20,000 bases of DNA from an uncultured virus (IMG/VR IMGVR_UViG_3300009136_000003). Its lineage: Duplodnaviria; Heunggongvirae; Uroviricota; Caudoviricetes; Crassvirales. The notes below the pieces were generated by a model. The model was not told the origin of the DNA, did no database searches, and worked only from the letters and a program-made list of their open reading frames with translations. Each line of letters starts with the position of its first letter. The stretch's first letter is position 1. The stretch lies in IMG/VR virus record IMGVR_UViG_3300009136_000003. One strand, given 5' to 3'. Position numbers and translations under genes: made by a program. Of this stretch, positions 4,550 to 20,000 are shown one piece after another.

Positions 4550-7500
4550 ATGGCAAACACATCTAGAAATTTTATTAAGGGTATAATGAACAAGTCGCTA
4601 GATGAGCGAATTATTCCTAACGGACAATATATTGATGCGTTGAATGTTCGTATGGGTTCTACTGAAGGTTCAGAGGTTGGTGTTATAGAAAACACCAAAG
4701 GAAACGAGCTATTGACAAGTCTTTCTTTTGAAGGAAATGCTTTAAGCTCATCAGCTAGATGTATTGGTGCTTATGAGGATGGTGCTAACGAGACCTTGTA
4801 TTGGTTTATTCACGACAGTAATTTTCCTTCTTCTCCTACAAATAAGATTGACTTGATAGTATCGTATGATACTAAAACAAGCAGTACACAATATCATATT
4901 ATTTCTATAGATAGCGGATTATCAGATGGTAACACAACTTTAAATTTTAATCCAAAGTATCTTATAACAGGGGTAAATAAAATAGAAGAATTATTATATT
5001 TTACAGACAACTATACAGACCCAAAACAAATAAATGTAACAAAAAATTATACCAATCCTGAATCAGGTGTTGATACTTTTTCTTTAGAGTCATTGCTTGT
5101 TATTAAAAAACCTCCGACAACATCTCCTATTATTGAGCCTGTTACAACTAGTACTACAAGTAACTTTTTAGAGGACAGGTTTATTTCTTTTGCATACAGG
5201 TATAGGTATGAGGATGGGGAATACTCTGCAACATCTCAGTTTAGTAACCCTGCTTTTATACCGGGTGCATTTAACTATAACTTTGCAACTGCATTAAATG
5301 GAGGTATGTTAAATACTAAGAACGCAGTTAACGTTACTTATAACACAGGAGGCCCTTTAGTTAAGTCTATTGACTTATTATTTAAGGATATGAATTCTTC
5401 TGTAATTAAAATTATAGAGAAAATAAATAAAGAAGAAGACGGTATACCTAATAATGTTGAGCGACAATATATTTTTGACAATAGCAAAATATTTACAGTA
5501 CTCCCCTCGTCAGAGATATTAAGACTTTTTGACAATGTACCTAGACTAGCTGACGCTCAGACTCTTATGGGTAATAGGCTTATGTATGGAAACTATCTTG
5601 AGGGATATGACTTAAAAGATGCAGATGGTAACGTCACTAAATTAGAGTATGTTACAACTTTTGATTCTGAAGAAGTTGGATTAGAACAACTTAGCTACGC
5701 AAATGGGCCGGGTTTATATAATTGGGTTGGGTCTGAAACAATACCAAAAGCTGTGATACAAATAAATTTTGCAGGCATAGAGCTTAAAGCAGGTAGTATT
5801 ATTAATATAACATTAAGATTTAGCTTTTCTAAATGGTCAGGTGCAACTCCATCACCTATTGAAGAGCTTCAAGAGACAACTATAGATTTTGCGTATACAC
5901 TACAAAGTGATTTCAACAATCCTTACGAGCTTTCTATTTTCCCTGACTTTGTACAAAGAATAGGTGAGGTAGGTACTATACAGACTGTAGAAAACTGTAG
6001 TCTAGGTACAACGTTTACAGATATATTTAATTGTTCAATTTCAAATGAGGTAAGCATTCCTGCACCTGTAGGAGGCTCTGCATTTAAGTTTGCAAGTGGT
6101 ATTAGCTCAGGAGGACAGCCTATACGAATTATTTCTGCAATAGGTTCTAATGTAATTAGTTTTCAGCTTCCTGCAATGCAATACGTAGACAATGTTCTTG
6201 CTCCGACTAGAAGTTATTATGAGTATTATCAAATAAATTTATCATCAGTTTATTTTCAAGAGGTTGGAGACCCAAAAAGTTTACATAGCAACAGGGGGTA
6301 TGAGATTGGAATAGTATATATGGATGAGTTTAATCGTATGACTACTGCATTGGTTAGTGAACAAAACACAGTACAAATACCTTGCTCTGCTTCAGTAACT
6401 AAAAACTCTATACAGGTAAATATACCACCTTCTCAAATAGCACCTTCTTGGGCAACACGGTATAAGTTTGTTATTAAGCCTGACAAAGAGGATTATAATG
6501 TTATTTACTCTAATTTCTTTTTTAGAGACCCAAGTTCAGGTTCAGATTACTTTTTGCTTGAAGGACAAAACTCAACAAAAATAGAATTAGGGGATGAACT
6601 AATTGTAAAGGCAGACACACAGGGTGCAAGACAGAATTGTACTTGGACTACAGTATTAGAAAAAGAAGCACAGCAACAAGATTTTTTAAAGCCTCCTCCT
6701 GTGGATGAGAATGCTAATGATATACTTCTTCCGGGAGGAGTTTATATGAAACTTCAAGCTAATAATTTCTCTACAGAATTAAAACCAAATTCAAACATAT
6801 CACCGGGTGAAATTGCAGAATCATCTTCTAGCGGTGGAACGTGTCCTATAGTGCAATACCCCACACAACTTTATAATGATTTAACAAATGCGTGGGAGGA
6901 TATAGAAATATTGGCAGGTTCTAGAGTATCTATAAGAATTAGTAACAACAGAAGAGGTAACGAGAGTGCAATGTGGGGTGGTGTTGATAAAAGAAATTGG
7001 GAGGTAGACACTAGCTTTATTTCAAATGATGATTATGGCTCTTTTTATCTATGGTTTAATGGGGATAATATTGCTCCTGCGTTAGAAGCTCAGGCAGTAG
7101 AAAAAATTCCAACCGATTGGGAGTTTAATTATACTGATGTTCTTGGAGGATTATCTAATGTTTGTAATGATACCACTATATCTTTAGCGTTTATAGATTT
7201 AGGAGCTAATGGAGGAATGAGGTTGCAGGTTAAGGGAAGTCTAGGATATAGTAATGAAAAGAAAAGAACTAACTTACAAGTAGAAATAGCTATAATACTT
7301 TCTAATAGTACAATTATTTTTGAGTCAGACCCTCAAGATGCATCACCTGATTTATGGTACGAGTCTTCTGAGTCTTACTCTATCGATTCATTAGGACAAC
7401 ACACAGGAAATTTTCAAAATCAAAATTTTTCTGCAAACATACCCGCCATTATACGTACTGCATTTTTTAATTGCTATGCGTTTGGTAATGGTGCGGAAAG

Positions 7501-9400
7501 TTTTAAGATTCAAGACTCTATAGTTGGCAAAGAACTTGTTTTAGGAAACAGAGCTACAACAACAGACTCTGAAGTTTATGGTGAGGAAAGAAGATTTTCT
7601 GATATTACTTATAGTGGAGTTTTTAACCCTGAGTCAAACATAAATAAGCTAAATGAATTTAATGGTGGACTCTTAAACTTTAAAAAACTAGAGACATCGT
7701 TTGGCCCTATTAGAAAATTATTTGCAAGAGAGACTGATGTGTTGTCGCTACAAGAGGATAAGATATCTTATGTATTAGCAGGCAAGAATTTATTGTCTGA
7801 CGCAGCAGGAGGAAATGCTTTAACGTCAGTACCTGAAGTTTTAGGAACTCAGATTGCAAGGATAGAGGAGTTTGGAATATCAAACAATGCTGAGAGTTTT
7901 GCTGAGTGGGGTTCAGATAAATATTTTACGGATGCCAAGAGAGGTGTTGTTATAAACTTAAAAGGTTCAAGTGCTCAGAACGAGCAGCTTCAAGTAATAT
8001 CATCAAGTGGTATGCGTACTTGGTTTAGAGACCTGTTTAATGAAACTTTTACAAGTCAAAAGTTAGGTGGGTTTGACCCATATATGAACGAGTTTGTGTT
8101 GTCGTCTAATAGAATTAAAAAACCTACAATCGAAGTATGCAAGAACTGTGGCATAACAGAGTCGTTTGTAATTAAAGATGTTGGATATCAGTACTGCTAT
8201 AATGTAGGAGAATTGGTTGGAACGGTTGATGTTAACTACAGCGTAGAGCTTCCTGTGACAGGAACGTTTGAGGTTATAGCTCTTTATAATGGCGTTGTTA
8301 CTACTACAGGTAGTGTTAGCACAAGTGGGGTATTAACATTCACAAAAGATGAGGTGTTAGTAAATGAGGTTTTAATTAGTATAATTCCAACACAAAGTAT
8401 AGATATAAGTTTAACTGTTGATTGCCCTATAGGAGACATTGTTACTATTGTTTTAGTAAATATTAGTAATGACGCTGATGCAGGGGAGACAATACACGAT
8501 GAGTACAGATGGACAGATTCAGCATTTCAGTCTCCATTACATTCATCGGGCGTTACTTTTTTATCAGGGCCAAGTCCTATAGTTTCTTTATATGAAACAA
8601 TTACAGGGCCTCAAGGTGGTGGTGTTATACCATCAAATAATGCCACGATAACAATAAGTTCAGATAAAAAAAGTACTGACACGTATGATTTTAATATTAA
8701 TTCAGACAACTTTAGATACCTAAGAACTAATATATTATACGCTAATACAACCACGCAGATTCAGTCATTACTTTTATCAAGCACAATACCGACACCAATA
8801 AATATTCCTACAGGAGGAAATACTGCGTATACTGCTAGTTTTAATATGCCAAATACAGGTCAGTATTTATATCTTATTTGGGACTATAGAGATGCTACAC
8901 CAATAGATTTGTGTTACGACAACGGTACTGCTCAGGCAGCTTGTTGTAATTGCCCTGCAAGTAGTTCTATATTTTTACTTGAAGACTGTGAGTCAGGAGC
9001 ACAATTTACTGTTGAAGATACATACCAAAACGGAATAGGAATTAACTCAGTTGTTCAGTACGTTCAAGGAGTAGGAGCAGGTGCAGGGACATTTGTTTAC
9101 TGTGGCCGTATAATTAACTTTGGTGTTACCGCAAACGCAACCTTATATTCTAATGAAACTCAAACCTGTGGGGATGTTTCAAATTGTAACTTTGATTCCG
9201 CTGTAAGTTGTTCTCAATATACTGTATCCACATACGCAAATACAGGACAGGGGTATTCATACACAGATTGTAATGGAGTATTCAGGAGTGAATTTATAGG
9301 TGGCTCAAACGGATATGATTCAGATACATTCTGTGCTCAAACAGGCTCAGTAGACCCCGGAAGCAATTACCTATCATTTGACGGAGATTGTCAATTTTAA
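4550..9400 (+). CDS. Tail stabilisation/muzzle-like protein (N-terminal and central part) with a Cys-rich C-terminal extension
   Basis: 1616 aa, beta-rich. N-terminal FIKGIMNKSLDERIIPNGQYIDALNVR, then LYFTDN, FAYRYRYEDGEYS, GNRLMYGNY, FGISNNAESFA, YFTDAKRG and GGFDPY resemble the P22 gp10/crAss muzzle-type family (recalled). 16 Cys after about position 8110. Confidence 0.7.
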   Translation: MANTSRNFIKGIMNKSLDERIIPNGQYIDALNVRMGSTEGSEVGVIENTKGNELLTSLSFEGNALSSSARCIGAYEDGANETLYWFIHDSNFPSSPTNKIDLIVSYDTKTSSTQYHIISIDSGLSDGNTTLNFNPKYLITGVNKIEELLYFTDNYTDPKQINVTKNYTNPESGVDTFSLESLLVIKKPPTTSPIIEPVTTSTTSNFLEDRFISFAYRYRYEDGEYSATSQFSNPAFIPGAFNYNFATALNGGMLNTKNAVNVTYNTGGPLVKSIDLLFKDMNSSVIKIIEKINKEEDGIPNNVERQYIFDNSKIFTVLPSSEILRLFDNVPRLADAQTLMGNRLMYGNYLEGYDLKDADGNVTKLEYVTTFDSEEVGLEQLSYANGPGLYNWVGSETIPKAVIQINFAGIELKAGSIINITLRFSFSKWSGATPSPIEELQETTIDFAYTLQSDFNNPYELSIFPDFVQRIGEVGTIQTVENCSLGTTFTDIFNCSISNEVSIPAPVGGSAFKFASGISSGGQPIRIISAIGSNVISFQLPAMQYVDNVLAPTRSYYEYYQINLSSVYFQEVGDPKSLHSNRGYEIGIVYMDEFNRMTTALVSEQNTVQIPCSASVTKNSIQVNIPPSQIAPSWATRYKFVIKPDKEDYNVIYSNFFFRDPSSGSDYFLLEGQNSTKIELGDELIVKADTQGARQNCTWTTVLEKEAQQQDFLKPPPVDENANDILLPGGVYMKLQANNFSTELKPNSNISPGEIAESSSSGGTCPIVQYPTQLYNDLTNAWEDIEILAGSRVSIRISNNRRGNESAMWGGVDKRNWEVDTSFISNDDYGSFYLWFNGDNIAPALEAQAVEKIPTDWEFNYTDVLGGLSNVCNDTTISLAFIDLGANGGMRLQVKGSLGYSNEKKRTNLQVEIAIILSNSTIIFESDPQDASPDLWYESSESYSIDSLGQHTGNFQNQNFSANIPAIIRTAFFNCYAFGNGAESFKIQDSIVGKELVLGNRATTTDSEVYGEERRFSDITYSGVFNPESNINKLNEFNGGLLNFKKLETSFGPIRKLFARETDVLSLQEDKISYVLAGKNLLSDAAGGNALTSVPEVLGTQIARIEEFGISNNAESFAEWGSDKYFTDAKRGVVINLKGSSAQNEQLQVISSSGMRTWFRDLFNETFTSQKLGGFDPYMNEFVLSSNRIKKPTIEVCKNCGITESFVIKDVGYQYCYNVGELVGTVDVNYSVELPVTGTFEVIALYNGVVTTTGSVSTSGVLTFTKDEVLVNEVLISIIPTQSIDISLTVDCPIGDIVTIVLVNISNDADAGETIHDEYRWTDSAFQSPLHSSGVTFLSGPSPIVSLYETITGPQGGGVIPSNNATITISSDKKSTDTYDFNINSDNFRYLRTNILYANTTTQIQSLLLSSTIPTPINIPTGGNTAYTASFNMPNTGQYLYLIWDYRDATPIDLCYDNGTAQAACCNCPASSSIFLLEDCESGAQFTVEDTYQNGIGINSVVQYVQGVGAGAGTFVYCGRIINFGVTANATLYSNETQTCGDVSNCNFDSAVSCSQYTVSTYANTGQGYSYTDCNGVFRSEFIGGSNGYDSDTFCAQTGSVDPGSNYLSFDGDCQF

Positions 9401-9413
9401 AATAAAATAAACT

Positions 9414-9872
9414 ATGGCAGTATATTACTTAGACGGAACAACACTATCAAACTCAACAGCAATATACGCTGATGTGGAGTTAACTATCTGCGAGTCAGAT
9501 GGGTTTTACTCTGATGGTGTTATTGTTAGACAGTTAGTTAATTGTGTATTACTTAATGTTCAGAGCTGTCCGAGTTGCCCTGACCCTAACCCTCCTAGCT
9601 ATACGATATATCGTTCTGCAATACAATCAGATTGTACTAATTTCTGTCCCGGTAACGCACCTAATTTTTTAATTTCTGTATCAGTACAGTCACCTTCTAT
9701 TTGGACGGATTTAAGTCTTGGTGATGAATTGCCATTGGCTGACGGATGGTATGCAACTGCGGCTACATCTACAGATACAGCAACAGGTAATTATAAAATG
9801 TATAATATGTTAAATGGTCAAATATCAGATATAAGAGTATGCTCTGCTACAGGGCAATGCCAAGCACAATAA
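9414..9872 (+). CDS. Cys-rich small structural/decoration protein
   Basis: 152 aa with 8 Cys. Two loosely similar halves (SDGFYS...QSC and ADGWYA...RVC). Confidence 0.6.
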   Translation: MAVYYLDGTTLSNSTAIYADVELTICESDGFYSDGVIVRQLVNCVLLNVQSCPSCPDPNPPSYTIYRSAIQSDCTNFCPGNAPNFLISVSVQSPSIWTDLSLGDELPLADGWYATAATSTDTATGNYKMYNMLNGQISDIRVCSATGQCQAQ

Positions 9873-9885
9873 ATAAAATATAAAT

Positions 9886-10689
9886 ATGTCCTTACCAACA
9901 AATACAAATAATACTTTAACATACGATAGCCAAGCAGGAGGTTGGCCATCGTTTTATTCTTACTTTCCTGATTGGATGATTGGTATGAATAATTACTTCT
10001 ATTCGTTCAAAGAGGGTAACCTTTACCGTCATAATACCAACGAGGTACGTAATAATTTTTATGGAGTTCAATATACAAGTACGGTACAGTCTGTATTTAA
10101 TGAAGGCCCTCTTGAAAATAAACTATTTAAAACCATTAACATAGAGGGAGATTCAGCTTGGGGTGTTACATTGCAAACTGATATACAGGACTCAGGATTT
10201 ATTGAGGCAGGTTGGTTTGAAGAAAAGGAGGCATCATTCTATGCCTTTGTAAGAAACTCAGGTACTGTTCCTGCACAAACTAGCGAGTATGTGTTACGCT
10301 CTTTAAATGGTATTGGAAGTAGTGAAACCATTACAGGAGCAGCAGACACTATTAATTTCTCTACAGACATCGAGCTAGACACTATGATGTCAGTTGGTGA
10401 TATGATGTATTATATTAATAGTCTAAGTAATACACCCACTCTTGCAGGGCAAATAGAGATTATAAATATAAACCTACAGTCAGGAGTTAATCAAGTTACA
10501 ATAGACACCTCAGTATCCGGTAGTGTTCCTATTGCAGGACAAGAGATTTTCTTTTTCTATATTAAGAACTCAGTTGCAGAGTCTCACGGAGTTTTAGGTC
10601 ACTACTGTGTTTTTGATATTGTAAACACCTCAACAGAAAAAATAAACTTATTTACAGTCGAGAGTGAAGTAATGAAAAGTTATCCGTAA
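9886..10689 (+). CDS. Putative C-terminal moiety of the tail stabilisation/muzzle protein
   Basis: 267 aa. TLTYD...GWPSFYSYFPDWM..MNNYFYSFK.GNLYRHN...NNFYG...VFN..P...KLFKTI matches what I recall as the segment following GG(F/Y)DPY in unsplit homologues. Confidence 0.55.
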   Translation: MSLPTNTNNTLTYDSQAGGWPSFYSYFPDWMIGMNNYFYSFKEGNLYRHNTNEVRNNFYGVQYTSTVQSVFNEGPLENKLFKTINIEGDSAWGVTLQTDIQDSGFIEAGWFEEKEASFYAFVRNSGTVPAQTSEYVLRSLNGIGSSETITGAADTINFSTDIELDTMMSVGDMMYYINSLSNTPTLAGQIEIININLQSGVNQVTIDTSVSGSVPIAGQEIFFFYIKNSVAESHGVLGHYCVFDIVNTSTEKINLFTVESEVMKSYP

Positions 10690-10707: not shown

Positions 10708-11205
10708 ATGGTAGAAGAAGACCAAGGAATACAAATACTTGAAGATGTAACCTCACATACAGGTATGTTGTGGGAAAGAATTTCTTTGTTTAGAAAACAA
10801 ATACAAGAAATTCCGGGAGCACTAGAGCATCATACTACTGAGATGGATGAGGCTATGCCTCTAAAGCATCATATAAAAGATGGTGTATACACGAGAGAAA
10901 TATTTATGCCAAAGGGTATGGTCGTTATAAGTTTCATACACAAGACAAACCACCCATCATTTTTTATGAGTGGCGAGATGTCTATAATTACAGACAAGGC
11001 AGAGGTTAAAAGAATAAAAGCACCAATGGTTTTACAGACTGAAATGGGCACACAGAGAATAGCTTATATGCACGAGGACTGTGTATGGGCGTGTGTATAC
11101 AGGACAGATTCAGAGACAGTTGAAGATGCAGAGAAGGAGTTGTACACAGAAAATTTTATGGAACTCCCTGAGTATATAATAAATAAAAATAAGCAAATAC
11201 AATAG
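10708..11205 (+). CDS. Phage cupin-like (double-stranded beta-helix) protein
   Basis: 165 aa. HHIKDGVYTREIFMPKG..VISFIHKTNHPSFFMSGEMSI...APMVLQTEMGTQRIAYMHEDCVW is a cupin-like strand pattern with His residues. Confidence 0.65.
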   Translation: MVEEDQGIQILEDVTSHTGMLWERISLFRKQIQEIPGALEHHTTEMDEAMPLKHHIKDGVYTREIFMPKGMVVISFIHKTNHPSFFMSGEMSIITDKAEVKRIKAPMVLQTEMGTQRIAYMHEDCVWACVYRTDSETVEDAEKELYTENFMELPEYIINKNKQIQ

Positions 11206-14218: not shown

Positions 14219-17200
14219 ATGGCAATACAAGAAATATATTACACCACTCCAAACGGAATGAAGATGAGTCAGACCGAGGCATTAGAACGCTACGGTAGTG
14301 AACAGTTTGATGCATTGGTTAACGAAGGTCAGTTAGTAGAATTTATTCAAGAAGAAGACCCTGAATTAAACCAAGGAGATAGTTTCTACGAATCACCCAA
14401 TGGAAATGTTTATACCGAAGGTGATTTAGCAAATCGATATGGTCTTGAAGCATTTAACAAATTAATAGACGAAGGTCATTTAAAAAAAAAAGATTCTCCT
14501 CAAGAAGTATCAAGCTTTGGGGGTGGAGATTTAGAGCCAACAGAGACTTTACCATATCAAGATTTACCTGAACCTACTGAACAAGATTTTTTTGAGGGTG
14601 GATTTGGGGATGCACTAAGAGGATTTGATGCTATAGTACCTCTAGGTATTGGAGACTTTATAGATGATATGACTCGTGCTGTTGCAGGTGGTATAAACCA
14701 AGGTATTGCAGGAGAGAACGCATCAGACCTTTTGTTCGCAGGGTCAATGGCTACGGATGAGGATATCGCTAGCTATATTGAAGCCAATCAAAACGCTCAA
14801 AAGTATGGGTCTTCTCAGGAAATGCAGGAGTACCAAAAAACCTACGAAGAATATGGAGGTGTTTTAGGTGTTGTTATGGGTCTTGCTAAATCAGGATTAA
14901 CAATACTACCCGAAATAATGTTAAGCTCATTTGCTGCTATGGCAGCCAACTCAGATGCTTTGGCTGCGGGAGGAACAATTGTTGGAGGTAGTGCAACAGC
15001 AGGTGCTTTAACAGCAGGTGCAGGAGCATCCGTTGTTGTTCCTGTAGTTGGAACAGTAGTAGGAGCAGCAGCCGGAGCTATTACAGGAGCAGCAGCATCG
15101 TTACCTTATGCATTTGCTGCGGCTAGTACGGCATTAGAAATGGGTGCTACTTTCTCTGAACTACTTCAAGGAGAAATTGATGGAGAATTAACTCCTGAAA
15201 AAATTAAGGCAGCCTTAAGCAACGAAAAAACTTACACAAGCATTAGAAACAAAGCAGTTGCAAGGGGTATTACTATAGGTGCTCTTGATATGCTTTCAGG
15301 TAAAGTAGGTGGTAGAATTGCATCTTCTGTATTAAAAAAAGGTGCGAGAGCTACAGGCATATCGTCAAGGGCTACAAAAATAAAGGCAGTAGCTGCGGCA
15401 AGTGCTGTAGAAGGAGTAGGTGGTTCAATAGGTGAGACTGCAGGTATTGCGGCAACTAATATAATTGGTGATACTAAAGGTCAGGATTTTGACATCTCTG
15501 AGATTATACTTGAAGGTATAGCTGAAATACCCGGTGGTGTAAAGGATATGGTTTCTGCTAGGTTTAGTAAACCTAAATATAAAGTAAACGGAGAAAGAGT
15601 TGATGCGGCTACCATAGACAGTATGATAGAAACAATGACTCTAGAGCAGCTTACCGAAAGTAGGATACAAATAGACAACGATTACGAGGGGAGAGATGCT
15701 GCATTGCAAGATAGAAAAGTAACACTATCTATAGAAAATCAGGTAAGAAAAGTAATACCCAATATTACTCCTGAAGCTGTTACTGAGATAGTTACGTTAC
15801 AGAAAGAACTACAATCACTTGAAGGAAACAAAACCGAAGTAGGTAAAAAAAGAGCGTCAGAAATTAGAGGTTCAATTAATGAAATTATGACCAATGAAAC
15901 TGCAGAAGCAGGTGTCGTTGAGGTAACAGATGAAGCGGTTGTTGCTAGAATAAAAGAGATTAAAGGTGACGACTCTGCTTACACTCAAGAAGAGTTTGAC
16001 AATATTAAAAAAATATTAGAGGCTGAAAATGAAGCTCAATTAGTAGAGGCACAAGAGGAACAGGTAATAACAAGTACTGAAGAGTTTAGAGGACTTGAAC
16101 AGTCAGAACAAATAGATTACCTAGAGAAGGCAACTAAAGAATTAGCAGCAGAGGCTGAAGCAGGTGGTAAAGTAGATTTTGAAATAACAGAATCACAAGC
16201 CTTGACAAGAGCAAATCAATTATTCCAAGATAATAAAAATGAAATAGGTAGACAAGAAAGGTTAGACAGTAGAGCGGAGAAAGAGAAAAAACAATTTGGA
16301 GAACAACACGCTGATGAGAAACTACCTTACGAAAAAGGTGCTGATGGAAAAGGAAGAGCTAAACTATACGACATTACAAAACCTAATGAGAAAGGAGTTG
16401 TTACTGCCGAGTATGTAAATCCCGAAACAGGAGTTGTAGACGTTATAATTAGCGGACAAAATGATGATAATTTTGTAGGGTATGTTAGGGTTTATGAAAA
16501 CGGTAAGCCAACAAATATGTTTACTGCTAAGATGGAGTCAACAGGAGACGCTTTCAAAGATATGATTACCGATGCTGAGGCTAAACTTCCTGACAACGCA
16601 GAGGTTGTTGAAACAACATCGATATCTATAGACGGATTAAAGTCATCTAGTAAATCAAAGCGAACAGAAAAAGTAGACGCTGATGGAAATGTTGTAACAA
16701 GACCAACGCCATATAGTGCCGCTACAAAAGAGTCTGTAGCAAGTGCCAAAGGAACTGACACAAATCCTTTTGAAAACTTTAAAACTACTGATAAAGCTGC
16801 AGCAGAAGCAGAGGTCGCTAAGATTGAAGCTGCATATCCGGGGATAACTGCAACAATAAATAAACGAAAAGGGCCTCCTGCTCCTCCACCTAGACCGGGG
16901 ACAAAAGACAAAGCTTCTGCTAAAGCAAAGCCTGAATATACAGTTTCTGTAAACCTTCCTGTTTTAGTGTCACCTAAATCAAACAACAAAACAAAAGTAG
17001 AAACAGATGCCGTTAAAAATTCACGTAAGCAACAATCTAAAGTTGAGCAGCAGGTAGACAACGCTAGAAAGGCTTTGAAAACTATTGACAATGAGATTAA
17101 AGTGGTGTATCATACTGACGATGCGTCTTACCGAGATGCTACAAACGAACAGTCAAGGGAGCAGTCTACTAATGGGGAGTATAATCCTACGACTAAAACC

Positions 17201-20000
17201 ATACACATAAACGGAACGAAGGCTAATAACAAAACAGTAGCACACGAGGTGTTCCACGCATTGCTGTTGAGGACAGGGATAACTAACGAGCAGGCTAAGG
17301 CTATTACGGATAAAATGCTAAAAGCGGTGAAGAAGACTGCATCGCCTGAGTTGATTGAAAAATTAGAAAAGTTCTCTAGCAATTATAAATCCTCACTACA
17401 GAGCGAGGAGAGTATAGCGGAGTTGTTTGGGTTACTAGCATCAGAGTATCCGAACCTAGACGCACCTACTCAGAGTATAGTAAAGAGATGGCTTGATAAG
17501 ATAGCTAAGATACTAAGGCTTAAGCCATTTACTGACGCTGAGGTTATTGACTTACTAAATGCGGTGTCTGCAAAGGTTGAGGCAGGACAAGAGATTACAG
17601 AGCAGGATGTTGCTATACTAGATGGTAGTGTTAGTGGTGTTATAAATACAAAAGCGAGAAAGCAAGCCTCTGTATTAACAAGTTTTACTTTGAAAAGGTT
17701 TCCTACAAATACAAATATAAAGTTATCGGAGGATACTCCTTTAAGTGATTTCAATGAAAAAAAATCCAACCTACTTGAATCGGATAGAATGACAGGAGCT
17801 TTTATAGCTGATGCTAATAATAATCCTGTGTTTAAATTCTTTGGTGGAATATACTTCCCACAGATAACAGGTAAGTGGTGGGCATCTAGAACTATTTCTA
17901 AGGCGAATGGGGTAGCCAAGAATATGAACGCTAATAGAGACAAGGATGGTTATATTTATGCAACACCAATCATAATGAAGCCGAACTCTCATATGAGTAA
18001 TCAAGATATGTTTGAGACTGTGTGGGAGTTTATGAAGTTTGATTTAAGGTCAAAGTCTAGTAAGGTAACTAAGAAGTTATTTCACGAATACTTAACCAAA
18101 GCTCTTACATTAAAATCAGTAAACTTATCTGAATCGGACTTAAATATAAAAAAGTCTGACAACATAGAAGTAATGATTAGTAAGCTAAACGATGTTTTAC
18201 TAGGCAAAGAAATAGATAATCTTAATTATGATTCTACTAAACCTGAATCAATAGATAACGCTAAAACAATAATTAAAGAATCAAACCTTTCGTTTGAAAA
18301 AAGGAAGGCAATTATAAAAGGTATTTTAGGAGACCCTAAGATAACCGAAGACAGAAAGTTTCCAACGGCAGGTTCTATATCAGAAGTGGCATCTAAGTTT
18401 GAGGAAGAAAAAACTAAGCAGGCAACTAAACTTTGGGATGTAGTAATGCTGATGAGAACAAAAGGAACTTTGTCTACAAAGGTTACTCCAAAGTCAGATG
18501 AATTTTACCATAAGTCATATCCTGCAGAGATATTTTCAGACCAAGAGATAGAGGTTTTCTTTTTAGATGGAGCTTATAATATAGACACAACATATCCTGT
18601 ACTTACTCAGTCATCAGGAAAAGTTTTCTCGTGGAAGGAGTATTCTGAAAAACATCCATCAGCGGCAATGGCATTAAGTCAGTATGGTAGGACTGCTAAG
18701 TTATCACAAGCTAGTGGTGATATAGTAGCAAGCCCTCAGTCTCGTAAGCAGAAGCCTAACTACAAAATAGCAAAAATTAATACACCCAACACAACTATAA
18801 ATGTTGTTGAAGGAGCAGGAACTGATAGTTTTGAGATAGCAACTAAAGATTATAAAGCCACCGAAGGAGTAGAAGGCTCTACAATAATTGGTTTTGTTAA
18901 AAATAAAGATTTTCCGGGAGAAAAAAAGAAAGAAACAAGGGGAGAGATTTTTATTCTTCAAGTAGGTGATAAAGGAAAAGGAACAGGTACTTCTTTAATG
19001 TTAGATGCATTAAGATTAATGAAAGAAAATGGAACAAAAACTGTTAAGTTTACAGTTCCAAGTAAAGAAGGAAAACCATTTAATGAATCTTTAGTTCGTA
19101 AGGGATATATAAATTTACTTAAAGTAAGCGATAGAACCGGTACTTCTGAATATGAAATAACAGATAAGGTTTTAGAAGACGCACCTCAGTCTCGTAAGCA
19201 GAAAATAGGGAGAACTACAAGACTAGCTCCTAATGGAAAGCAATCTAACTTAACTGACGTGCAGTATGATGCTGTAAGAACGCCTGCGTTTAAGAAGTGG
19301 TTCGGTAATTGGGAGACAGACCCTGAGAATGCGAGTAAAGTAGTGGACGAGAATGGTGAGCCTAGAGTTGTATGGAGAGGCAGGGACACAAGTAAAGGTG
19401 ATGTTGGAGATGTAATAGATATTGGAAAAACCAATGAGGGTGCTTTCTTTGCTGATAATAAAGAGGCTTCCGATTTGTTTATGTCTGAGTTTTTAGGAAT
19501 TAAAAAAGGTGATTATGAAATAATTGAATCGTTTTTAAACATAAGAACCCCGGAAGTATTTGAAGATTTTTGGAATGATTTTATGGGTAATAGAAATTCT
19601 AATAAACCTAATTATAAATACGAACCAAAAAAAGGTGTTGATGGAGCTATAATAAATGATGACGTTTGGCTACAAGAATCAGAAATAGATTGGAAAGAAG
19701 GGCAGTTTGATGAAAATGGTAATCAATTAGAAGAAGAGGTTATTAAAGAAATCGCTTTAGAAGGCAAGCAATTTATTGTTTTTAAACCTAACCAAATAAA
19801 ATCAGCCGATGGCAGCAACACTACTTTTGACCCAAACAAGCCGTCTATACGTAAGCAACAAGACGACAGCAAAGAGGTTAGTGAAATAGAGGGTGAGATT
19901 CAATATTTAGAATCCGAGATTGCAGACAAGCAAGAGGAAATTGCGGCTGAAAAATCTGATACCAAGGATGACATACAGAAAAAGAAGGATGAGATAGCTA
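14219..20000 (+). CDS. Giant polyvalent virion (ejection) protein, 3' truncated: zincin + unknown domain + GNAT + ADP-ribosyltransferase-like domains
   Basis: Manually translated from ATG 14219 (MAIQEIYYTTPNG...) with no stop to the window end (at least 1927 codons). Absent from the ORF track because no stop falls inside the window. A-rich initiation region. Confidence 0.9.
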   Translation, partial: MAIQEIYYTTPNGMKMSQTEALERYGSEQFDALVNEGQLVEFIQEEDPELNQGDSFYESPNGNVYTEGDLANRYGLEAFNKLIDEGHLKKKDSPQEVSSFGGGDLEPTETLPYQDLPEPTEQDFFEGGFGDALRGFDAIVPLGIGDFIDDMTRAVAGGINQGIAGENASDLLFAGSMATDEDIASYIEANQNAQKYGSSQEMQEYQKTYEEYGGVLGVVMGLAKSGLTILPEIMLSSFAAMAANSDALAAGGTIVGGSATAGALTAGAGASVVVPVVGTVVGAAAGAITGAAASLPYAFAAASTALEMGATFSELLQGEIDGELTPEKIKAALSNEKTYTSIRNKAVARGITIGALDMLSGKVGGRIASSVLKKGARATGISSRATKIKAVAAASAVEGVGGSIGETAGIAATNIIGDTKGQDFDISEIILEGIAEIPGGVKDMVSARFSKPKYKVNGERVDAATIDSMIETMTLEQLTESRIQIDNDYEGRDAALQDRKVTLSIENQVRKVIPNITPEAVTEIVTLQKELQSLEGNKTEVGKKRASEIRGSINEIMTNETAEAGVVEVTDEAVVARIKEIKGDDSAYTQEEFDNIKKILEAENEAQLVEAQEEQVITSTEEFRGLEQSEQIDYLEKATKELAAEAEAGGKVDFEITESQALTRANQLFQDNKNEIGRQERLDSRAEKEKKQFGEQHADEKLPYEKGADGKGRAKLYDITKPNEKGVVTAEYVNPETGVVDVIISGQNDDNFVGYVRVYENGKPTNMFTAKMESTGDAFKDMITDAEAKLPDNAEVVETTSISIDGLKSSSKSKRTEKVDADGNVVTRPTPYSAATKESVASAKGTDTNPFENFKTTDKAAAEAEVAKIEAAYPGITATINKRKGPPAPPPRPGTKDKASAKAKPEYTVSVNLPVLVSPKSNNKTKVETDAVKNSRKQQSKVEQQVDNARKALKTIDNEIKVVYHTDDASYRDATNEQSREQSTNGEYNPTTKTIHINGTKANNKTVAHEVFHALLLRTGITNEQAKAITDKMLKAVKKTASPELIEKLEKFSSNYKSSLQSEESIAELFGLLASEYPNLDAPTQSIVKRWLDKIAKILRLKPFTDAEVIDLLNAVSAKVEAGQEITEQDVAILDGSVSGVINTKARKQASVLTSFTLKRFPTNTNIKLSEDTPLSDFNEKKSNLLESDRMTGAFIADANNNPVFKFFGGIYFPQITGKWWASRTISKANGVAKNMNANRDKDGYIYATPIIMKPNSHMSNQDMFETVWEFMKFDLRSKSSKVTKKLFHEYLTKALTLKSVNLSESDLNIKKSDNIEVMISKLNDVLLGKEIDNLNYDSTKPESIDNAKTIIKESNLSFEKRKAIIKGILGDPKITEDRKFPTAGSISEVASKFEEEKTKQATKLWDVVMLMRTKGTLSTKVTPKSDEFYHKSYPAEIFSDQEIEVFFLDGAYNIDTTYPVLTQSSGKVFSWKEYSEKHPSAAMALSQYGRTAKLSQASGDIVASPQSRKQKPNYKIAKINTPNTTINVVEGAGTDSFEIATKDYKATEGVEGSTIIGFVKNKDFPGEKKKETRGEIFILQVGDKGKGTGTSLMLDALRLMKENGTKTVKFTVPSKEGKPFNESLVRKGYINLLKVSDRTGTSEYEITDKVLEDAPQSRKQKIGRTTRLAPNGKQSNLTDVQYDAVRTPAFKKWFGNWETDPENASKVVDENGEPRVVWRGRDTSKGDVGDVIDIGKTNEGAFFADNKEASDLFMSEFLGIKKGDYEIIESFLNIRTPEVFEDFWNDFMGNRNSNKPNYKYEPKKGVDGAIINDDVWLQESEIDWKEGQFDENGNQLEEEVIKEIALEGKQFIVFKPNQIKSADGSNTTFDPNKPSIRKQQDDSKEVSEIEGEIQYLESEIADKQEEIAAEKSDTKDDIQKKKDEIA
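14237..14482 (+). repeat. Tandem protein repeat (49-aa period) at the N-terminus of the giant ORF
   Basis: YYTTPNGMKMSQTEALERYGSEQFDALVNEGQL versus FYESPNGNVYTEGDLANRYGLEAFNKLIDEGHL. Y, PNG, RYG, E, F, L, EG and L are in exact register. Confidence 0.85.
17036..17656 (+). other. Zincin-like metallopeptidase domain within the giant ORF
   Basis: GEYNPTTKTIHIN...TVAHEVFH (HExxH at 17243-17257) and a downstream EESIAE (17405-17422) that could supply the third Zn ligand. Confidence 0.85.
18734..19203 (+). repeat. Perfect 20-nt direct repeat CCTCAGTCTCGTAAGCAGAA at 18734-18753 and 19184-19203
   Basis: Two identical copies 450 nt apart, in the same frame, both encoding PQSRKQK. Confidence 0.95.
18755..19183 (+). 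other. GNAT acetyltransferase-like domain within the giant ORF
   Basis: IFILQVGDKGKGTGTSLMLDALRLMKENG (motif A-like, KGKGTG at 18971-18988), followed by TVKF..PSKEGKPFNESLVRKGY (motif B-like). Confidence 0.7.
19205..19849 (+). other. ADP-ribosyltransferase-like (ART-PolyVal-type) domain within the giant ORF
   Basis: LAPNGKQSNL..VRTPAFKKWFGNWE..SKVVDENGEPRVVWRG..GAFFA..FLNIRTP..GVDGAI..FIVFKPNQIKSA..FDP follows the motif order of the polyvalent-protein ART family. Confidence 0.75.

What the first reader, a model, noticed from the sequence alone, without database searches (positions are those of the whole stretch)
17021..19861. RKQ-punctuated effector array: a candidate virion-injected, self-cleaving polyprotein
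Seen: RKQ occurs five times in the giant ORF (17024 NSRKQQ, 17657 KARKQA, 18743 PQSRKQK, 19193 PQSRKQK, 19850 PSIRKQQ). Each copy sits at a domain boundary, dividing the C-terminal half into a zincin (211 aa), an unknown domain (362 aa), a GNAT (150 aa), an ART-like domain (219 aa) and a following coiled coil. I saw none in the first ~930 aa, and rough composition predicts fewer than one by chance. Established: phage polyvalent proteins (Iyer/Aravind and colleagues) combine zincins, GNATs and ARTs and are proposed to be delivered into the host with the DNA. Inference: RKQ is the recognition site of the in-cis HEVFH protease, which releases separate host-takeover or anti-defence enzymes. The last copy (FDPNKPSIRKQ) occupies the position of the 'DIR(F/Y)S' tail I recall in other ART-PolyVal proteins, which would suggest lineage-specific protease/site pairs.
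Basis: partly seen in the sequence, partly recalled or inferred. Interest (0 to 1): 0.9.

Follow-up and report, generated by a model that had tools for sequence, protein, structure and literature searches.

The report
Cut-here code in phage giant protein
A giant protein that a marine crAss-like phage probably carries in its particle is a string of enzymes separated by a short Arg-Lys-Gln tag whose middle letter changes, in related phages, in step with the protein's own built-in zinc protease, which makes the tag a concrete candidate for the long-predicted cutting sites of such proteins, although no cutting has been shown.

Summary
RKQ occurs 5 times in the open giant ORF (14219-19999), at the stated coordinates. 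Composition predicts 0.22, and 0 of 20000 shuffles reach 5. Four of the 5 sites lie in low-confidence, probably disordered linkers and one is borderline. The modules are a zincin, an unknown conserved domain, a GNAT fold and an ART-PolyVal domain.

RKQ is the local form of a wider junction motif, (D-A-)P-Q-S/T-R-x-Q, found in hundreds of giant virion proteins of uncultured crAss-like marine phages. The middle residue x is uniform within a protein and differs between lineages: K, E, Q or S.

The motif type follows the in-cis HExxH zincin, not the neighbouring modules. The unknown domain can be 97-98% identical between proteins whose zincins are 37-42% identical, and its flanking motifs then differ. 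Pairs with zincins at least 60% identical share the type in 217 of 219 cases.

No other endopeptidase was found in a complete related genome. Cleavage is inferred, not shown. Synonymous conservation of CGY-NAG-CAG and breakpoint clustering show the junctions are also recombination joints.

The scan has noted similar junction "dialects" on other DNA. No paper found describes this motif.

The parts
14219..19999 (+). Giant ORF, open at the window's 3' end (1927 aa seen; relatives are 2800-4100 aa)
   Evidence: full-length relatives
14219..17023 (+). N-terminal region (aa 1-935), free of RKQ. It contains a Gly/Ala-rich hydrophobic stretch (about aa 215-310) and ends in a Pro/Lys/Ala-rich low-complexity tail.
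   Evidence: phrog_32588 on aa 144-561
17024..17032 (+). RKQ site 1 (NS-RKQ-QS, CGT AAG CAA), the N-junction of the zincin
   Evidence: The same junction reads KP-RKQ-V in many relatives. First 10-residue block of the model has mean pLDDT 46.
17033..17656 (+). Zincin (gluzincin-like) module. HEVFH is at 17243-17257 and the conserved Glu-Glu (aa 1063-1064) at 17405-17410.
   Evidence: Sub-threshold Pfam zincin hits. Weak fold matches to PPEP-2, SprT/Spartan-like and TTHA0227, Z 5.0-5.7.
17156..17164 (+). R-E-Q inside a loop (aa 978-982) that is inserted only in K-type zincins. This is the only Arg-Glu dipeptide in the 1927 aa.
17657..17665 (+). RKQ site 2 (KA-RKQ-AS, AGA AAG CAA), zincin/unknown-domain junction
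   Evidence: Inside the pLDDT<50 segment aa 1114-1154. Relatives have R-E-S, R-E-D or R-Q-D here.
17666..18742 (+). Unknown, very conserved domain (aa 1150-1508)
   Evidence: pLDDT 70-96. Up to 98% identical in relatives. Weak PUA-like/YTH/ASCH fold matches, Z 5-6. No Pfam family.
18743..18751 (+). RKQ site 3 (PQS-RKQ-K, CGT AAG CAG)
   Evidence: The pLDDT drop starts at aa 1507.
18734..18753 (+). First copy of an exact 20-nt direct repeat, CCTCAGTCTCGTAAGCAGAA
18752..19192 (+). GNAT-fold module (aa 1512-1658), a mobile cassette
   Evidence: Fold matches Z up to 9.5. Found in 8 proteins at different positions. No Pfam hit.
19184..19203 (+). Second copy of the 20-nt direct repeat
19193..19201 (+). 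RKQ site 4 (PQS-RKQ-K, CGT AAG CAG)
   Evidence: Inside the pLDDT<50 segment aa 1655-1663.
19202..19849 (+). ART-PolyVal module with its conserved LAPNGK...WFGxW N-terminal extension
   Evidence: PF18760, 52 bits; pLDDT 88-93 for the extension
19850..19858 (+). RKQ site 5 (PSI-RKQ-Q, CGT AAG CAA), the tail of the ART module
   Evidence: Inside the pLDDT<50 segment aa 1867-1886.
19859..19999 (+). Start of a long acidic helix (coiled-coil-like), cut by the window end
   Evidence: helix at model residues 376-402 and 408-418
4550..10689 (+). Upstream crAss-type muzzle genes, which place the giant gene in a virion block
   Evidence: PF25731 and PF25729; PHROGs virion structural proteins

Best explanation
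The giant ORF encodes a polyvalent virion (probably ejected) protein of an uncultured crAss-like phage of marine Flavobacteriia type.

Architecture: in complete relatives, a central array of swappable enzyme modules (zincin, unknown domain, GNAT, ART) lies between long N- and C-terminal regions. The window shows the N-terminal region and the array. Every joint of the array carries the peptide (D-A-)P-Q-S/T-R-x-Q in a flexible linker. In this phage x is Lys.

Most likely function: the peptide is the recognition and cleavage site of the protein's own HExxH gluzincin, which cuts the array into separate enzymes, in the capsid or after delivery.

My inference on the cut position: the cut falls next to the invariant Arg, with x as the P1' residue read by the S1' pocket. 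That pocket is the main specificity pocket of zincins (recalled knowledge). This would explain why x can be re-tuned (K, E, Q, S) while all sites of a protein follow.

The same joints also serve as recombination joints for module exchange.

Shown here: the motif, its excess, its position in linkers and at homology breakpoints, its lineage-specific dialects, and their association with the zincin clade. Inferred: cleavage, the identity of the protease, the scissile bond, and delivery into the host.
For: 1. Excess and restriction.
- 5 RKQ against 0.22 expected, and 0 of 20000 shuffles reach 5.
- In 16 K-type loci the giant ORFs hold 67 RKQ against 7.8 expected, and the other ORFs 3 against 3.8.
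- In the complete 60.8-kb relative G002 there are 6 RKQ in the giant and 0 in 53 other ORFs.

2. Linkers. Four of 5 sites lie in pLDDT<50 segments between folded modules.

3. Boundaries.
- 21% of 5330 internal HSP ends lie within 5 aa of an RKQ, against 2.8% at random.
- The GNAT cassette occurs in 8 proteins at different places. It is flanked by SRKQK in K-type proteins, by IKRSQL in P0063 and by EPRRK in P0082.

4. Extended motif. Conservation runs from -5 to +3 (D-A-P-Q-S-R-K-Q-K).

5. Dialects.
- Relatives have R-E-Q/D, R-Q-Q or R-S-Q at the aligned junctions.
- Both flanks of the unknown domain change together in the 68 proteins examined.

6. The type follows the zincin.
- L002 (E-type) has an unknown domain 97-98% identical to K-type P0002/3/6-9, but a zincin only 37-38% identical.
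- P0011/L003 (E) against P0014 (Q): unknown domain 98% identical, zincin 42%.
- Pairs with unknown domain >=75% and zincin <50% identical: none of those listed shares the type.
- Zincin >=60% identical: 217 of 219 pairs share the type.
- N-terminus >=60% with zincin <50%: 0 of 4. C-terminus >=60% with zincin <50%: 0 of 3.
- Zincin >=70% with N-terminus <45%: 32 of 32.
- With sites within 60 aa of the zincin left out: 92 of 92 pairs at zincin >=60%, 36% at 45-60%, 26% at 30-45%.
- Clusters at 70% identity with mixed type: zincin 0 of 11, N-terminus 2 of 6, C-terminus 2 of 12.

7. Protein-level selection. Sites with other codons (AGA AAG CAA at 17657; AGA AAA CAA in L010, L039, L041) keep R-K-Q.

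8. Catalytic residues. H1009, E1010, H1013 and E1064 are invariant, and E1063 is kept in 90 of 91 labelled zincin domains.

9. No other protease.
- The Pfam and PHROGs scans of G002's ORFs (52 and 27 ORFs) find only an M15 endolysin.
- Peptidase_S78 is found in 0 of 5 complete relatives.

10. Homologues of at least 1900 aa without this zincin: 0 of 14 have 3 or more copies of any R-[KEQS]-Q, against 39% of 248 with it.

11. Iyer et al. 2017 (PMC5512222, passages read) predicted processing of polyvalent proteins by embedded zincins and cite phage P1 DdrB as a processed case.
Against: - No cleavage product has been seen. Everything is sequence inference.
- The pair counts are not independent, because relatives share labels. 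I count only about four or five independent swaps: L002 against the K clade; P0011 against P0014; P0166 against P0176; P0211 against L045/L050/P0091; L045 against L061.
- The motif type could follow any factor inherited together with the zincin.
- One pair with a 61%-identical zincin differs in label (P0139 K, P0146 'E'). P0146's R-E-Q/D sites do not look like junctions, so it is probably misclassified.
- P0012 is mixed: R-E-D at three junctions and R-Q-Q at one. P0002 carries PQSREQ next to PQSRKQ.
- At the 20 canonical PQ[ST]R[KEQ]Q sites the Arg codon is CGY in 20 of 20 (background 11%), x is NAG in 20 of 20, and the last Gln is CAG in 17 of 20, while the flanking codons vary. This is a nucleotide-level constraint that the protease model does not explain.
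- Charge covariation inside the zincin is ambiguous. Columns 977 and 1093 swap sign with x, while 1048 and 1090 go the same way as x.
- RKQ is not avoided in the other phage proteins (3 against 3.8 expected).
- Pfam does not place the zincin in any family above its cut-off. Fold matches are below the noise level (Z 5.0-5.7).
- Iyer et al. note that the N4 virion RNA polymerase carries such a zincin and is packaged uncut.
Confidence: 0.55

Rival explanations
1. Recombination joint only. The conserved linker, at DNA level, is the homology that lets modules be swapped, inserted and deleted. The uniformity within a protein comes from gene conversion among linkers. The protein is never cut.
For: - Breakpoints cluster at RKQ.
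- An exact 20-nt direct repeat flanks the GNAT cassette.
- CGY-NAG-CAG is kept at synonymous sites in 20 of 20, 20 of 20 and 17 of 20 canonical sites.
- CGT makes up 4 of the 5 Arg codons in the window's sites but only 6 of 61 Arg codons in the ORF.
- The complete relative encodes a Sak single-strand annealing protein and a PDDEXK exonuclease.
Against: - Junctions written in other codons (AGA AAG CAA, AGA AAA CAA, AGG GAA TCA) keep the same amino-acid dialect as the rest of the protein. Conversion of short DNA tracts would not do this.
- The flanks of a 98%-identical domain carry the recipient's dialect, not the donor's.
- The motif extends over 8-9 residues with varied flanking codons.
- Recombination alone gives no reason for the link to the zincin clade.
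Confidence: 0.15
2. Real cleavage sites, cut by a different protease: an unrecognised phage maturation protease, or a host protease met after delivery. The zincin would then have another task.
For: - Recalled precedents: internal proteins of T4 and phiKZ-like phages are cut at short motifs by the prohead protease.
- Iyer et al. note the N4 virion RNA polymerase carries a zincin yet is packaged uncut.
- Many ORFs of the relatives have no family assignment.
Against: - No protease family other than the M15 endolysin appears among the ORFs of the complete relative that were scanned.
- Peptidase_S78 is found in 0 of 5 complete relatives.
- The motif is not enriched in capsid, portal or other virion proteins, as targets of a prohead protease usually are.
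- A host protease would not explain dialects that differ between phages with 98%-identical modules and follow the zincin.
Confidence: 0.17
3. A nucleotide- or translation-level signal, for example a programmed pause at less-used codons between domains to help folding, or another DNA or RNA signal. The amino acids would be a by-product.
For: - The core CGY-NAG-CAG is conserved at synonymous positions while the neighbouring codons vary.
- The three sense readings of NAG (K, Q, E) are all used as dialects.
- Over 80 giant ORFs, CGT is 699 of 7796 Arg codons but supplies 41 RKQ, against 54 for AGA, which has 5208 codons.
Against: - Many junctions keep R-K-Q with AGA, AAA and CAA codons.
- The S dialect is CGC TCA CAG, not NAG.
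- The K-S-K-S-Q and R-K-K-Q dialects do not fit the pattern.
- A pause signal gives no reason for one uniform middle residue per protein.
Confidence: 0.05
4. Chance, or a by-product of Lys/Gln-rich low-complexity linkers.
For: The linkers are rich in K, Q, S and P.
Against: - 0 of 20000 shuffles reach 5 copies.
- RKQ is among the three most over-represented tripeptides in 10 of the 121 proteins then held.
- The motif is kept at aligned junctions across relatives.
Confidence: 0.01

Closest known systems
Polyvalent proteins of phages and conjugative elements with a zincin-like MPTase hub (Iyer, Burroughs, Anand, de Souza, Aravind 2017, PMC5512222; abstract and passages read)
   Same: One polypeptide combines a zincin, an ART-PolyVal domain (Pfam PF18760 passes its cut-off), a GNAT fold and uncharacterised domains in a phage. 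The paper proposes that the embedded zincin processes the polypeptide.
   Different: The paper names no cleavage motif: 'linker' occurs 0 times, and none of the 12 'cleav'/'processing' passages shown (of 30 places) gives a site. Here a defined 8-9-residue junction peptide is found, with lineage dialects tied to the zincin clade. This zincin does not reach any Pfam family's cut-off.
MARTX toxins (PMC2900308, passages read; PMC5218395, abstract only)
   Same: N- and C-terminal regions flank a central array of modular effectors. An in-cis protease is said to cut at a fixed residue in 'unstructured segments between effectors'. Effector content varies by gene exchange.
   Different: MARTX toxins are bacterial secreted toxins of eukaryotic cells, with a cysteine protease activated by InsP6 and P1 Leu. 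Here the carrier is a phage virion protein, the candidate protease is a metallopeptidase, the site is R-x-Q, and the target would be a bacterium. This is an analogy of design, not homology.
Crassvirales virion cargo and muzzle block (Bayfield et al. 2023, PMC10172136; searched for terms)
   Same: The giant gene lies just downstream of genes matching crAss_MUZ and crAss_MUZ_C, in the part of the genome where crassviruses encode proteins carried in the particle.
   Different: The paper's text holds none of the terms cleav-, proteoly-, protease or scaffold. The complete relative here is about 61 kb and no RNA polymerase family showed up.
Prohead-protease processing of internal head proteins (T4 gp21, phiKZ gp175; recalled, not read here)
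   Same: A short motif marks the cleavage sites of proteins stored in the capsid and delivered to the host.
   Different: Those proteases are separate serine proteases that also cut capsid proteins. Here no such protease was found and the motif is confined to one protein.
Demarcating motifs of polymorphic toxins (VENN of CdiA, PxxxxDPxGL of Rhs; recalled, not read here)
   Same: A short conserved peptide marks the joint where variable modules are exchanged by recombination. In Rhs it is also an autoproteolysis site.
   Different: Those have one joint before one C-terminal toxin. Here there are several joints per protein with lineage-specific dialects.

Membership tests
Polyvalent protein (Iyer et al. 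2017) | Two or more unrelated effector or enzyme domains in one polypeptide of a phage or conjugative element | tested here: met
   Zincin motif, GNAT fold (Z up to 9.5) and ART-PolyVal in one ORF of a phage virion block
Polyvalent protein (Iyer et al. 2017) | ART-PolyVal domain (PF18760) | tested here: met
   45.5 bits on the whole protein and 52 bits on the segment; cut-off 31.2
Polyvalent protein (Iyer et al. 2017) | Membership of the zincin in the MPTase-PolyVal sequence family | tested here: inconclusive
   Pfam scan at E up to 5 lists only sub-threshold Astacin, M78, M91 and DUF5700 hits. No polyvalent-type MPTase family was listed.
Polyvalent protein (Iyer et al. 2017) | Carried in the particle and delivered with the DNA | not testable with these tools
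   Only gene order and the depositor's label 'structural protein' on the elemo phage homologue, 33% identical over aa 907-1237
Gluzincin metallopeptidase | HExxH motif | tested here: met
   HEVFH at aa 1009-1013. H, E and H are invariant in the 91 labelled zincin domains shown and at least 90% conserved in A2.
Gluzincin metallopeptidase | Downstream Glu as third zinc ligand | tested here: inconclusive
   E1064 is invariant and E1063 is kept in 90 of 91 domains, 50 residues after the motif. Its role as a ligand is inferred, not shown.
Gluzincin metallopeptidase | Zincin fold | tested here: inconclusive
   Foldseek gives no match at E<=0.001. VIA-align gives Z 5.7 to PPEP-2 (6fpc, 125 aligned, rmsd 5.2), Z 5.3 to 6mdx and Z 5.0 to 2ejq, all under the noise level of about 8.
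Gluzincin metallopeptidase | Peptidase activity | not testable with these tools
   Needs an assay
Self-cleaving effector polyprotein (works like MARTX) | Recurrent site in unstructured linkers between effector modules | tested here: met
   4 of 5 sites lie in pLDDT<50 segments and 1 is borderline. Breakpoint clustering.
Self-cleaving effector polyprotein (works like MARTX) | Site specificity matched to the in-cis protease | tested here: met
   The motif dialect follows the zincin clade. The pairs are not independent and there are about 4-5 independent swaps.
Self-cleaving effector polyprotein (works like MARTX) | Cleavage at the sites | not testable with these tools
   No proteomic data on hand. 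A cut next to Arg or Lys would also be invisible in tryptic digests.
GNAT acyltransferase | GNAT fold | tested here: met
   Most of the 50 rows listed are GNAT-fold proteins. Best is 6edw_A, Z 9.5, 126 aligned, rmsd 3.5, covering model residues about 10-150. The model's confidence there is only 45-79.
GNAT acyltransferase | Sequence membership in a GNAT family | tested here: not met
   0 Pfam families at E up to 5 for aa 1509-1658
Crassvirales-type virion block | Muzzle protein genes next to the giant gene | tested here: met
   PF25731 (E 3.5e-12) on ORF 4550-9400 and PF25729 (E 1.4e-16) on ORF 9886-10689

The most novel reading that the evidence does not exclude
R-x-Q is a natural, re-programmable cleavage code. 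The in-cis gluzincin cuts after the invariant Arg and reads the middle residue in its S1' pocket. That pocket has been re-tuned at least four times (Lys, Glu, Gln, Ser), each time followed by single-base retuning (AAG, GAG or CAG) of every junction in the protein, including junctions of freshly imported modules. The giant protein would then be a phage counterpart of a MARTX toxin: a particle-borne carrier that releases a shuffled set of anti-host enzymes inside the bacterium. The dialects would be orthogonal protease/site pairs that stop co-infecting relatives from processing each other's cargo.
Probability: 0.3. Interest if true: 0.9.

Novelty: new variant of a known kind. Interest (0 to 1): 0.75.

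Why it matters
Polyvalent proteins are widespread in phages and conjugative elements. Their processing by embedded zincins has been a prediction since 2017, without a single defined site.

A short, countable motif with lineage dialects that track the protease makes the prediction directly testable. One construct from this window (17021-19861) holds the protease and five sites.

If the code is real, it gives three things. It allows unknown giant phage proteins to be parsed into modules. It offers a set of natural orthogonal protease/site pairs. It shows how phages import new anti-host enzymes by recombination at the joints and then retune the joint by one base.

It also flags the 360-aa unknown domain, 98% identical between otherwise distant phages, as a module under recent horizontal spread.

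Tried and rejected
- Whole genome of the window: not held. The nearest record, G001, is a 16.5-kb fragment that does not reach the region. Sites beyond base 20000 could therefore not be sought. In relatives the sites are confined to the central third.
- Near-identical DNA in named phages: none.
- PDB by sequence: 0 matches at E<=1.
- Foldseek against PDB with the 998-residue model: nothing at E<=0.001.
That model left aa 1507-1889 unmodelled, so a second job covered aa 1509-1927.
- Complex prediction of the zincin (aa 937-1146, with Zn) and the linker peptide (aa 1640-1682): no verdict, score 0.02 against a mark of 0.34, controls not run. This is no evidence either way.
- Avoidance of RKQ in other phage proteins: not seen. 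G002 has 0 against 1.7 expected, and 16 loci have 3 against 3.8. The power is too low to say more.
- Charge-swap columns in the zincin: ambiguous and confounded by descent.
- The single RKQ in ORF 10708-11205 and the conserved NL-RSQ-LG in the ORF upstream of S-type giants: no sign that they are junctions.
- Stand-alone copies of the unknown domain: only 2 short proteins, from contigs under 1.7 kb.
- Literature: 'crAss-like' + 'cargo proteins' + 'proteolytic' gave 0 papers. The ejection protein/polyprotein/metalloprotease search gave nothing relevant. The strings PQSRKQ, QSRKQK and APQSRKQ gave 0 papers. A search for the elemo phage paper did not find it.
Full report
**What is in the window.** All large ORFs lie on the + strand. 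ORF 4550-9400 matches the Crassvirus muzzle protein (PF25731, E 3.5e-12) and ORF 9886-10689 matches its C-terminal domain (PF25729). Most other upstream ORFs hit PHROGs labelled virion structural protein. The last ORF starts at 14219 and is still open at 19999 (1927 aa). G+C is 31-44%.

No named phage has near-identical DNA. By protein, 79 phage records match. Sixty-eight of them are Flavobacterium phages of the 'elemo' group, at 33% identity over aa 907-1237. There the match lies in a 3694-aa CDS that the depositors call 'structural protein'. The window is therefore the virion block of an uncultured crAss-like phage of marine or aquatic Flavobacteriia type.

**The observation.** RKQ stands at aa 936, 1147, 1509, 1659 and 1878, exactly at the coordinates given, and nowhere in aa 1-935. 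Composition predicts 0.22 copies, and 0 of 20000 shuffles reach 5. The other ten ORFs hold one RKQ in all.

The modules between the sites are as described:
- HEVFH is at aa 1009-1013, with only sub-threshold Pfam zincin hits.
- A 362-aa domain has no family.
- A 150-aa module has no Pfam hit, but its model matches GNAT folds in most of the 50 rows listed (best Z 9.5, 126 residues, rmsd 3.5).
- ART-PolyVal scores 52 bits against a cut-off of 31.2.
- The tail is a long helix.

**Linkers.** Two AlphaFold models were made.

In the first (aa 930-1927, 30 sequences) the zincin has pLDDT about 60-85 and the unknown domain 70-96. Segments under 50 are aa 930-935, aa 1114-1154 (which holds RKQ-1147) and everything from aa 1507, where RKQ-1509 begins.

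In the second (aa 1509-1927, 19 sequences) the segments under 50 include aa 1509-1538, aa 1655-1663 (RKQ-1659) and aa 1867-1886 (RKQ-1878).

RKQ-936 sits at the edge of a low segment, at the start of a low-confidence helix, after a Pro/Lys/Ala-rich tail. So 4 of 5 sites are in likely flexible linkers and 1 is borderline.

**RKQ is one dialect of a wider junction motif.** The closest IMG/VR relatives L002 (4082 aa) and L003 (3133 aa) have no RKQ at all. At the aligned positions they read SP-RE-S/D, QS-REQ-K, AT-REQ-R, SA-REQ-K and SI-RED-R.

Homologue searches gave these sets:
- 585 proteins with E<=0.001 among 8000 scored, 120 listed.
- 470 proteins with E<=0.001, 150 listed.
- 79 further loci.

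RKQ is among the three most over-represented tripeptides in 10 of the 121 proteins then held. Its contexts include DAPQS-RKQ-K/I, DAPSI-RKQ-K and QKP-RKQ-V. Twenty of 80 giant ORFs from loci have 3 or more RKQ.

Other lineages carry TPQT-RQQ-K, IK-RSQ-L, K-S-K-S/A-Q or R-K-K-S/Q at the same kind of joint. Over 131 distinct K-type sites, conservation runs from -5 to +3 (D-A-P-Q-S-R-K-Q-K).

Tandem-ART proteins end each ART with DI-R-F/Y-x-x-GG, and the zincin-bearing giants have SI-R-K-Q, R-E-D or R-Q-Q in that column.

**The sites are module boundaries.**
- For 43 proteins with 4 or more RKQ, 21% of 5330 internal BLAST alignment ends lie within 5 aa of an RKQ, against 2.8% for random positions. 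Within 15 aa the figures are 40% against 7.7%. These ends are redundant, not independent.
- The GNAT module occurs in 8 proteins at different positions. It is flanked on both sides by SRKQK in four K-type proteins, by IKRSQL in P0063 and by EPRRK in P0082. It has no such motif in P0116, which lacks the zincin.
- In the window the cassette is flanked by an exact 20-nt direct repeat (18734-18753 and 19184-19203).
- The unknown domain is almost never a separate gene. Only 2 small proteins were found, both from contigs under 1.7 kb.

**The dialect follows the zincin.** In the 68 proteins with a complete unknown domain, its two flanks carry the same dialect: ARKQ/SRKQ, SPRE/SREQ, SPRQD/ATRQQ, KSKSS/KSKSQ, RKKS/RKKQ.

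Two cases are especially clear:
- L002 (E-type) has an unknown domain 97-98% identical to those of K-type P0002, P0003 and P0006-9, while its zincin is 37-38% identical to theirs.
- P0011/L003 (E) and P0014 (Q) share a 98%-identical unknown domain but have zincins only 42% identical.

None of the pairs listed with unknown domain >=75% and zincin <50% identical shares the dialect.

Among 76 classifiable proteins:

| Pair class | Pairs sharing the dialect |
|---|---|
| Zincin >=60% identical | 217 of 219 |
| N-terminal 600 aa >=60%, zincin <50% | 0 of 4 |
| C-terminal 800 aa >=60%, zincin <50% | 0 of 3 |
| Zincin >=70%, N-terminus <45% | 32 of 32 |
| Zincin >=70%, C-terminus <45% | 25 of 25 |

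When sites within 60 aa of the zincin are left out of the classification (50 proteins), 92 of 92 pairs at zincin >=60% share the dialect, 36% at 45-60% and 26% at 30-45%.

Clusters at 70% identity that mix dialects: zincin 0 of 11, N-terminus 2 of 6, C-terminus 2 of 12.

The exception at 60% is P0139 against P0146. It is probably a misclassification, because P0146's R-E-Q/D sites do not look like joints.

These pair counts are inflated by relatedness. I see about four or five independent swaps.

**Which protease?**
- H1009, E1010, H1013 and E1064 are invariant, and E1063 is kept in 90 of 91 labelled zincin domains.
- In the complete 60.8-kb relative G002, the Pfam scan (52 ORFs) and the PHROGs scan (27 ORFs) find TerL, portal, a capsid-type virion protein, muzzle proteins, an M15 endolysin, GroEL/GroES, a Sak annealing protein and a PDDEXK nuclease. 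They find no maturation protease.
- Peptidase_S78 is absent from 5 of 5 complete relatives.
- Of 14 homologues of at least 1900 aa without this zincin, 0 have 3 or more copies of any R-[KEQS]-Q, against 39% of 248 with it.

Fold searches place the zincin only weakly (Z 5.0-5.7 to PPEP-2, an SprT/Spartan-like protease and TTHA0227), below the noise level.

**What does not fit the simple protease story.** At the 20 canonical PQ[ST]R[KEQ]Q sites in the loci:
- The Arg codon is CGT or CGC in 20 of 20 (background 11%).
- The middle codon is AAG, GAG or CAG in 20 of 20.
- The last Gln is CAG in 17 of 20.
- The Pro, Gln and Ser/Thr codons before them vary.

In the window 4 of 5 sites use CGT, which makes up only 6 of 61 Arg codons in the ORF, and 5 of 5 use AAG, which is 36% of Lys codons.

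So the dialects K, E and Q differ by one base in an otherwise frozen core. I read this as joints that travel with modules between phages and are retuned by one transition. P0012 and P0002 look like intermediates. But the synonymous freezing itself is unexplained.

Junctions written AGA AAG CAA or AGA AAA CAA still keep R-K-Q, which argues that the amino acids are what is selected.

RKQ is not avoided in other phage proteins. Charge-swap columns in the zincin are ambiguous.

**Mechanism proposed.** In complete relatives the array lies between a long N-terminal region and a C-terminal region of about 1200 aa. The N-terminal region has a Gly/Ala-rich hydrophobic stretch and no sites. Sites run from aa 997 to 2003 of 3267 in G002.

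This layout, with an in-cis protease and sites in unstructured linkers, is the design of MARTX toxins, here in a phage.

I infer that the zincin cuts next to the invariant Arg, with the variable residue as P1'. This rests on recalled knowledge that zincin specificity lies mainly in S1', and that Lys-N- and Asp-N-type metallopeptidases exist.

**Prior knowledge.** Iyer et al. 2017 proposed zincin processing of polyvalent proteins, cite P1 DdrB as processed and N4 vRNAP as uncut, and give no site. The crassvirus structural atlas does not mention cleavage or proteases. No paper holds the motif strings.

Earlier notes of this scan describe similar junction peptides with 'dialects' in other giant phage proteins on other DNA. 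I did not test those.

**Verdict.** I class it as a new variant of a known kind.

Noticed in passing
window 17666-18742 (aa 1150-1508): The unknown 360-aa domain is the best-conserved part of the family. It is 97-98% identical between phages whose zincins are about 40% identical, and it has many invariant residues (ESDRM, GG, W, YHKSYP). Its model gives weak PUA-like/ASCH/YTH/EVE matches (Z 5-6). It is almost never a stand-alone gene. It looks like a recently spreading module of unknown activity, perhaps one that binds modified nucleic acid.
   Followed up: partly
window 17024, 18743, 19193, 19850; loci L002-L068: The junction core is frozen at synonymous sites as CGY-NAG-CAG (20 of 20, 20 of 20 and 17 of 20 at canonical sites), while the neighbouring codons vary. 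The K, E and Q dialects differ by the first base of the middle codon only. Unexplained.
   Followed up: partly
window 17150-17164 (aa 978-982): K-type zincins carry an inserted loop reading R-E-Q or R-K-Q just before the strand that leads to the HExxH helix. E-, Q- and S-type zincins lack it. In the window it holds the only Arg-Glu dipeptide of the 1927 aa (RE: 1 seen, 5.8 expected). It could be a pseudo-substrate or a self-cleavage loop.
   Followed up: no
L084-L086 (record G002, complete 60.8-kb relative): The related phage encodes GroEL- and GroES-like chaperonins, a Sak single-strand annealing protein with a PDDEXK nuclease, and a 676-aa DUF285-repeat protein. No prohead protease or RNA polymerase family was detected.
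   Followed up: partly
window 14861-15148 (aa about 215-310): A Gly/Ala-rich hydrophobic stretch (…GGTIVGGSATAGALTAGAGASVVVPVVGTVVGAAAGAITGAAAS…) in the N-terminal region. It resembles membrane-inserting segments of ejection proteins.
   Followed up: no
proteins P0043, P0064, P0067, P0076, P0081, P0083, P0104, P0108-P0110: Proteins with tandem arrays of ART-PolyVal modules join them with DI-R-F/Y-x-x-GG followed by LLAPNG. Of the five in this set long enough to be checked (at least 1900 aa), four lack this zincin and HExxH. The joints may be a different junction code.
   Followed up: no
L042 5117-6610, L045 5762-7279, L050 4814-6298: In the three S-type phages the ORF just upstream of the giant gene keeps NL-RSQ-LGYE at aa 320-324. 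In total there are 5 RSQ in non-giant ORFs against 0.9 expected. This may be plain conservation among close relatives.
   Followed up: no
window 10708-11205 (aa 29): The one RKQ outside the giant ORF (LF-RKQ-IQ), in a small tail-fibre-like protein. It has no Pro/Ser context and is probably chance.
   Followed up: partly
window 18752-19192: The GNAT-fold cassette lists the anti-CRISPR acetyltransferase AcrVA5 (Z 7.2) and tRNA-acetylating toxins TacT/AtaT (Z 7.0-7.5) among its fold matches. It carries a KGKGTG stretch that resembles the acetyl-CoA loop of GNATs (recalled motif).
   Followed up: no
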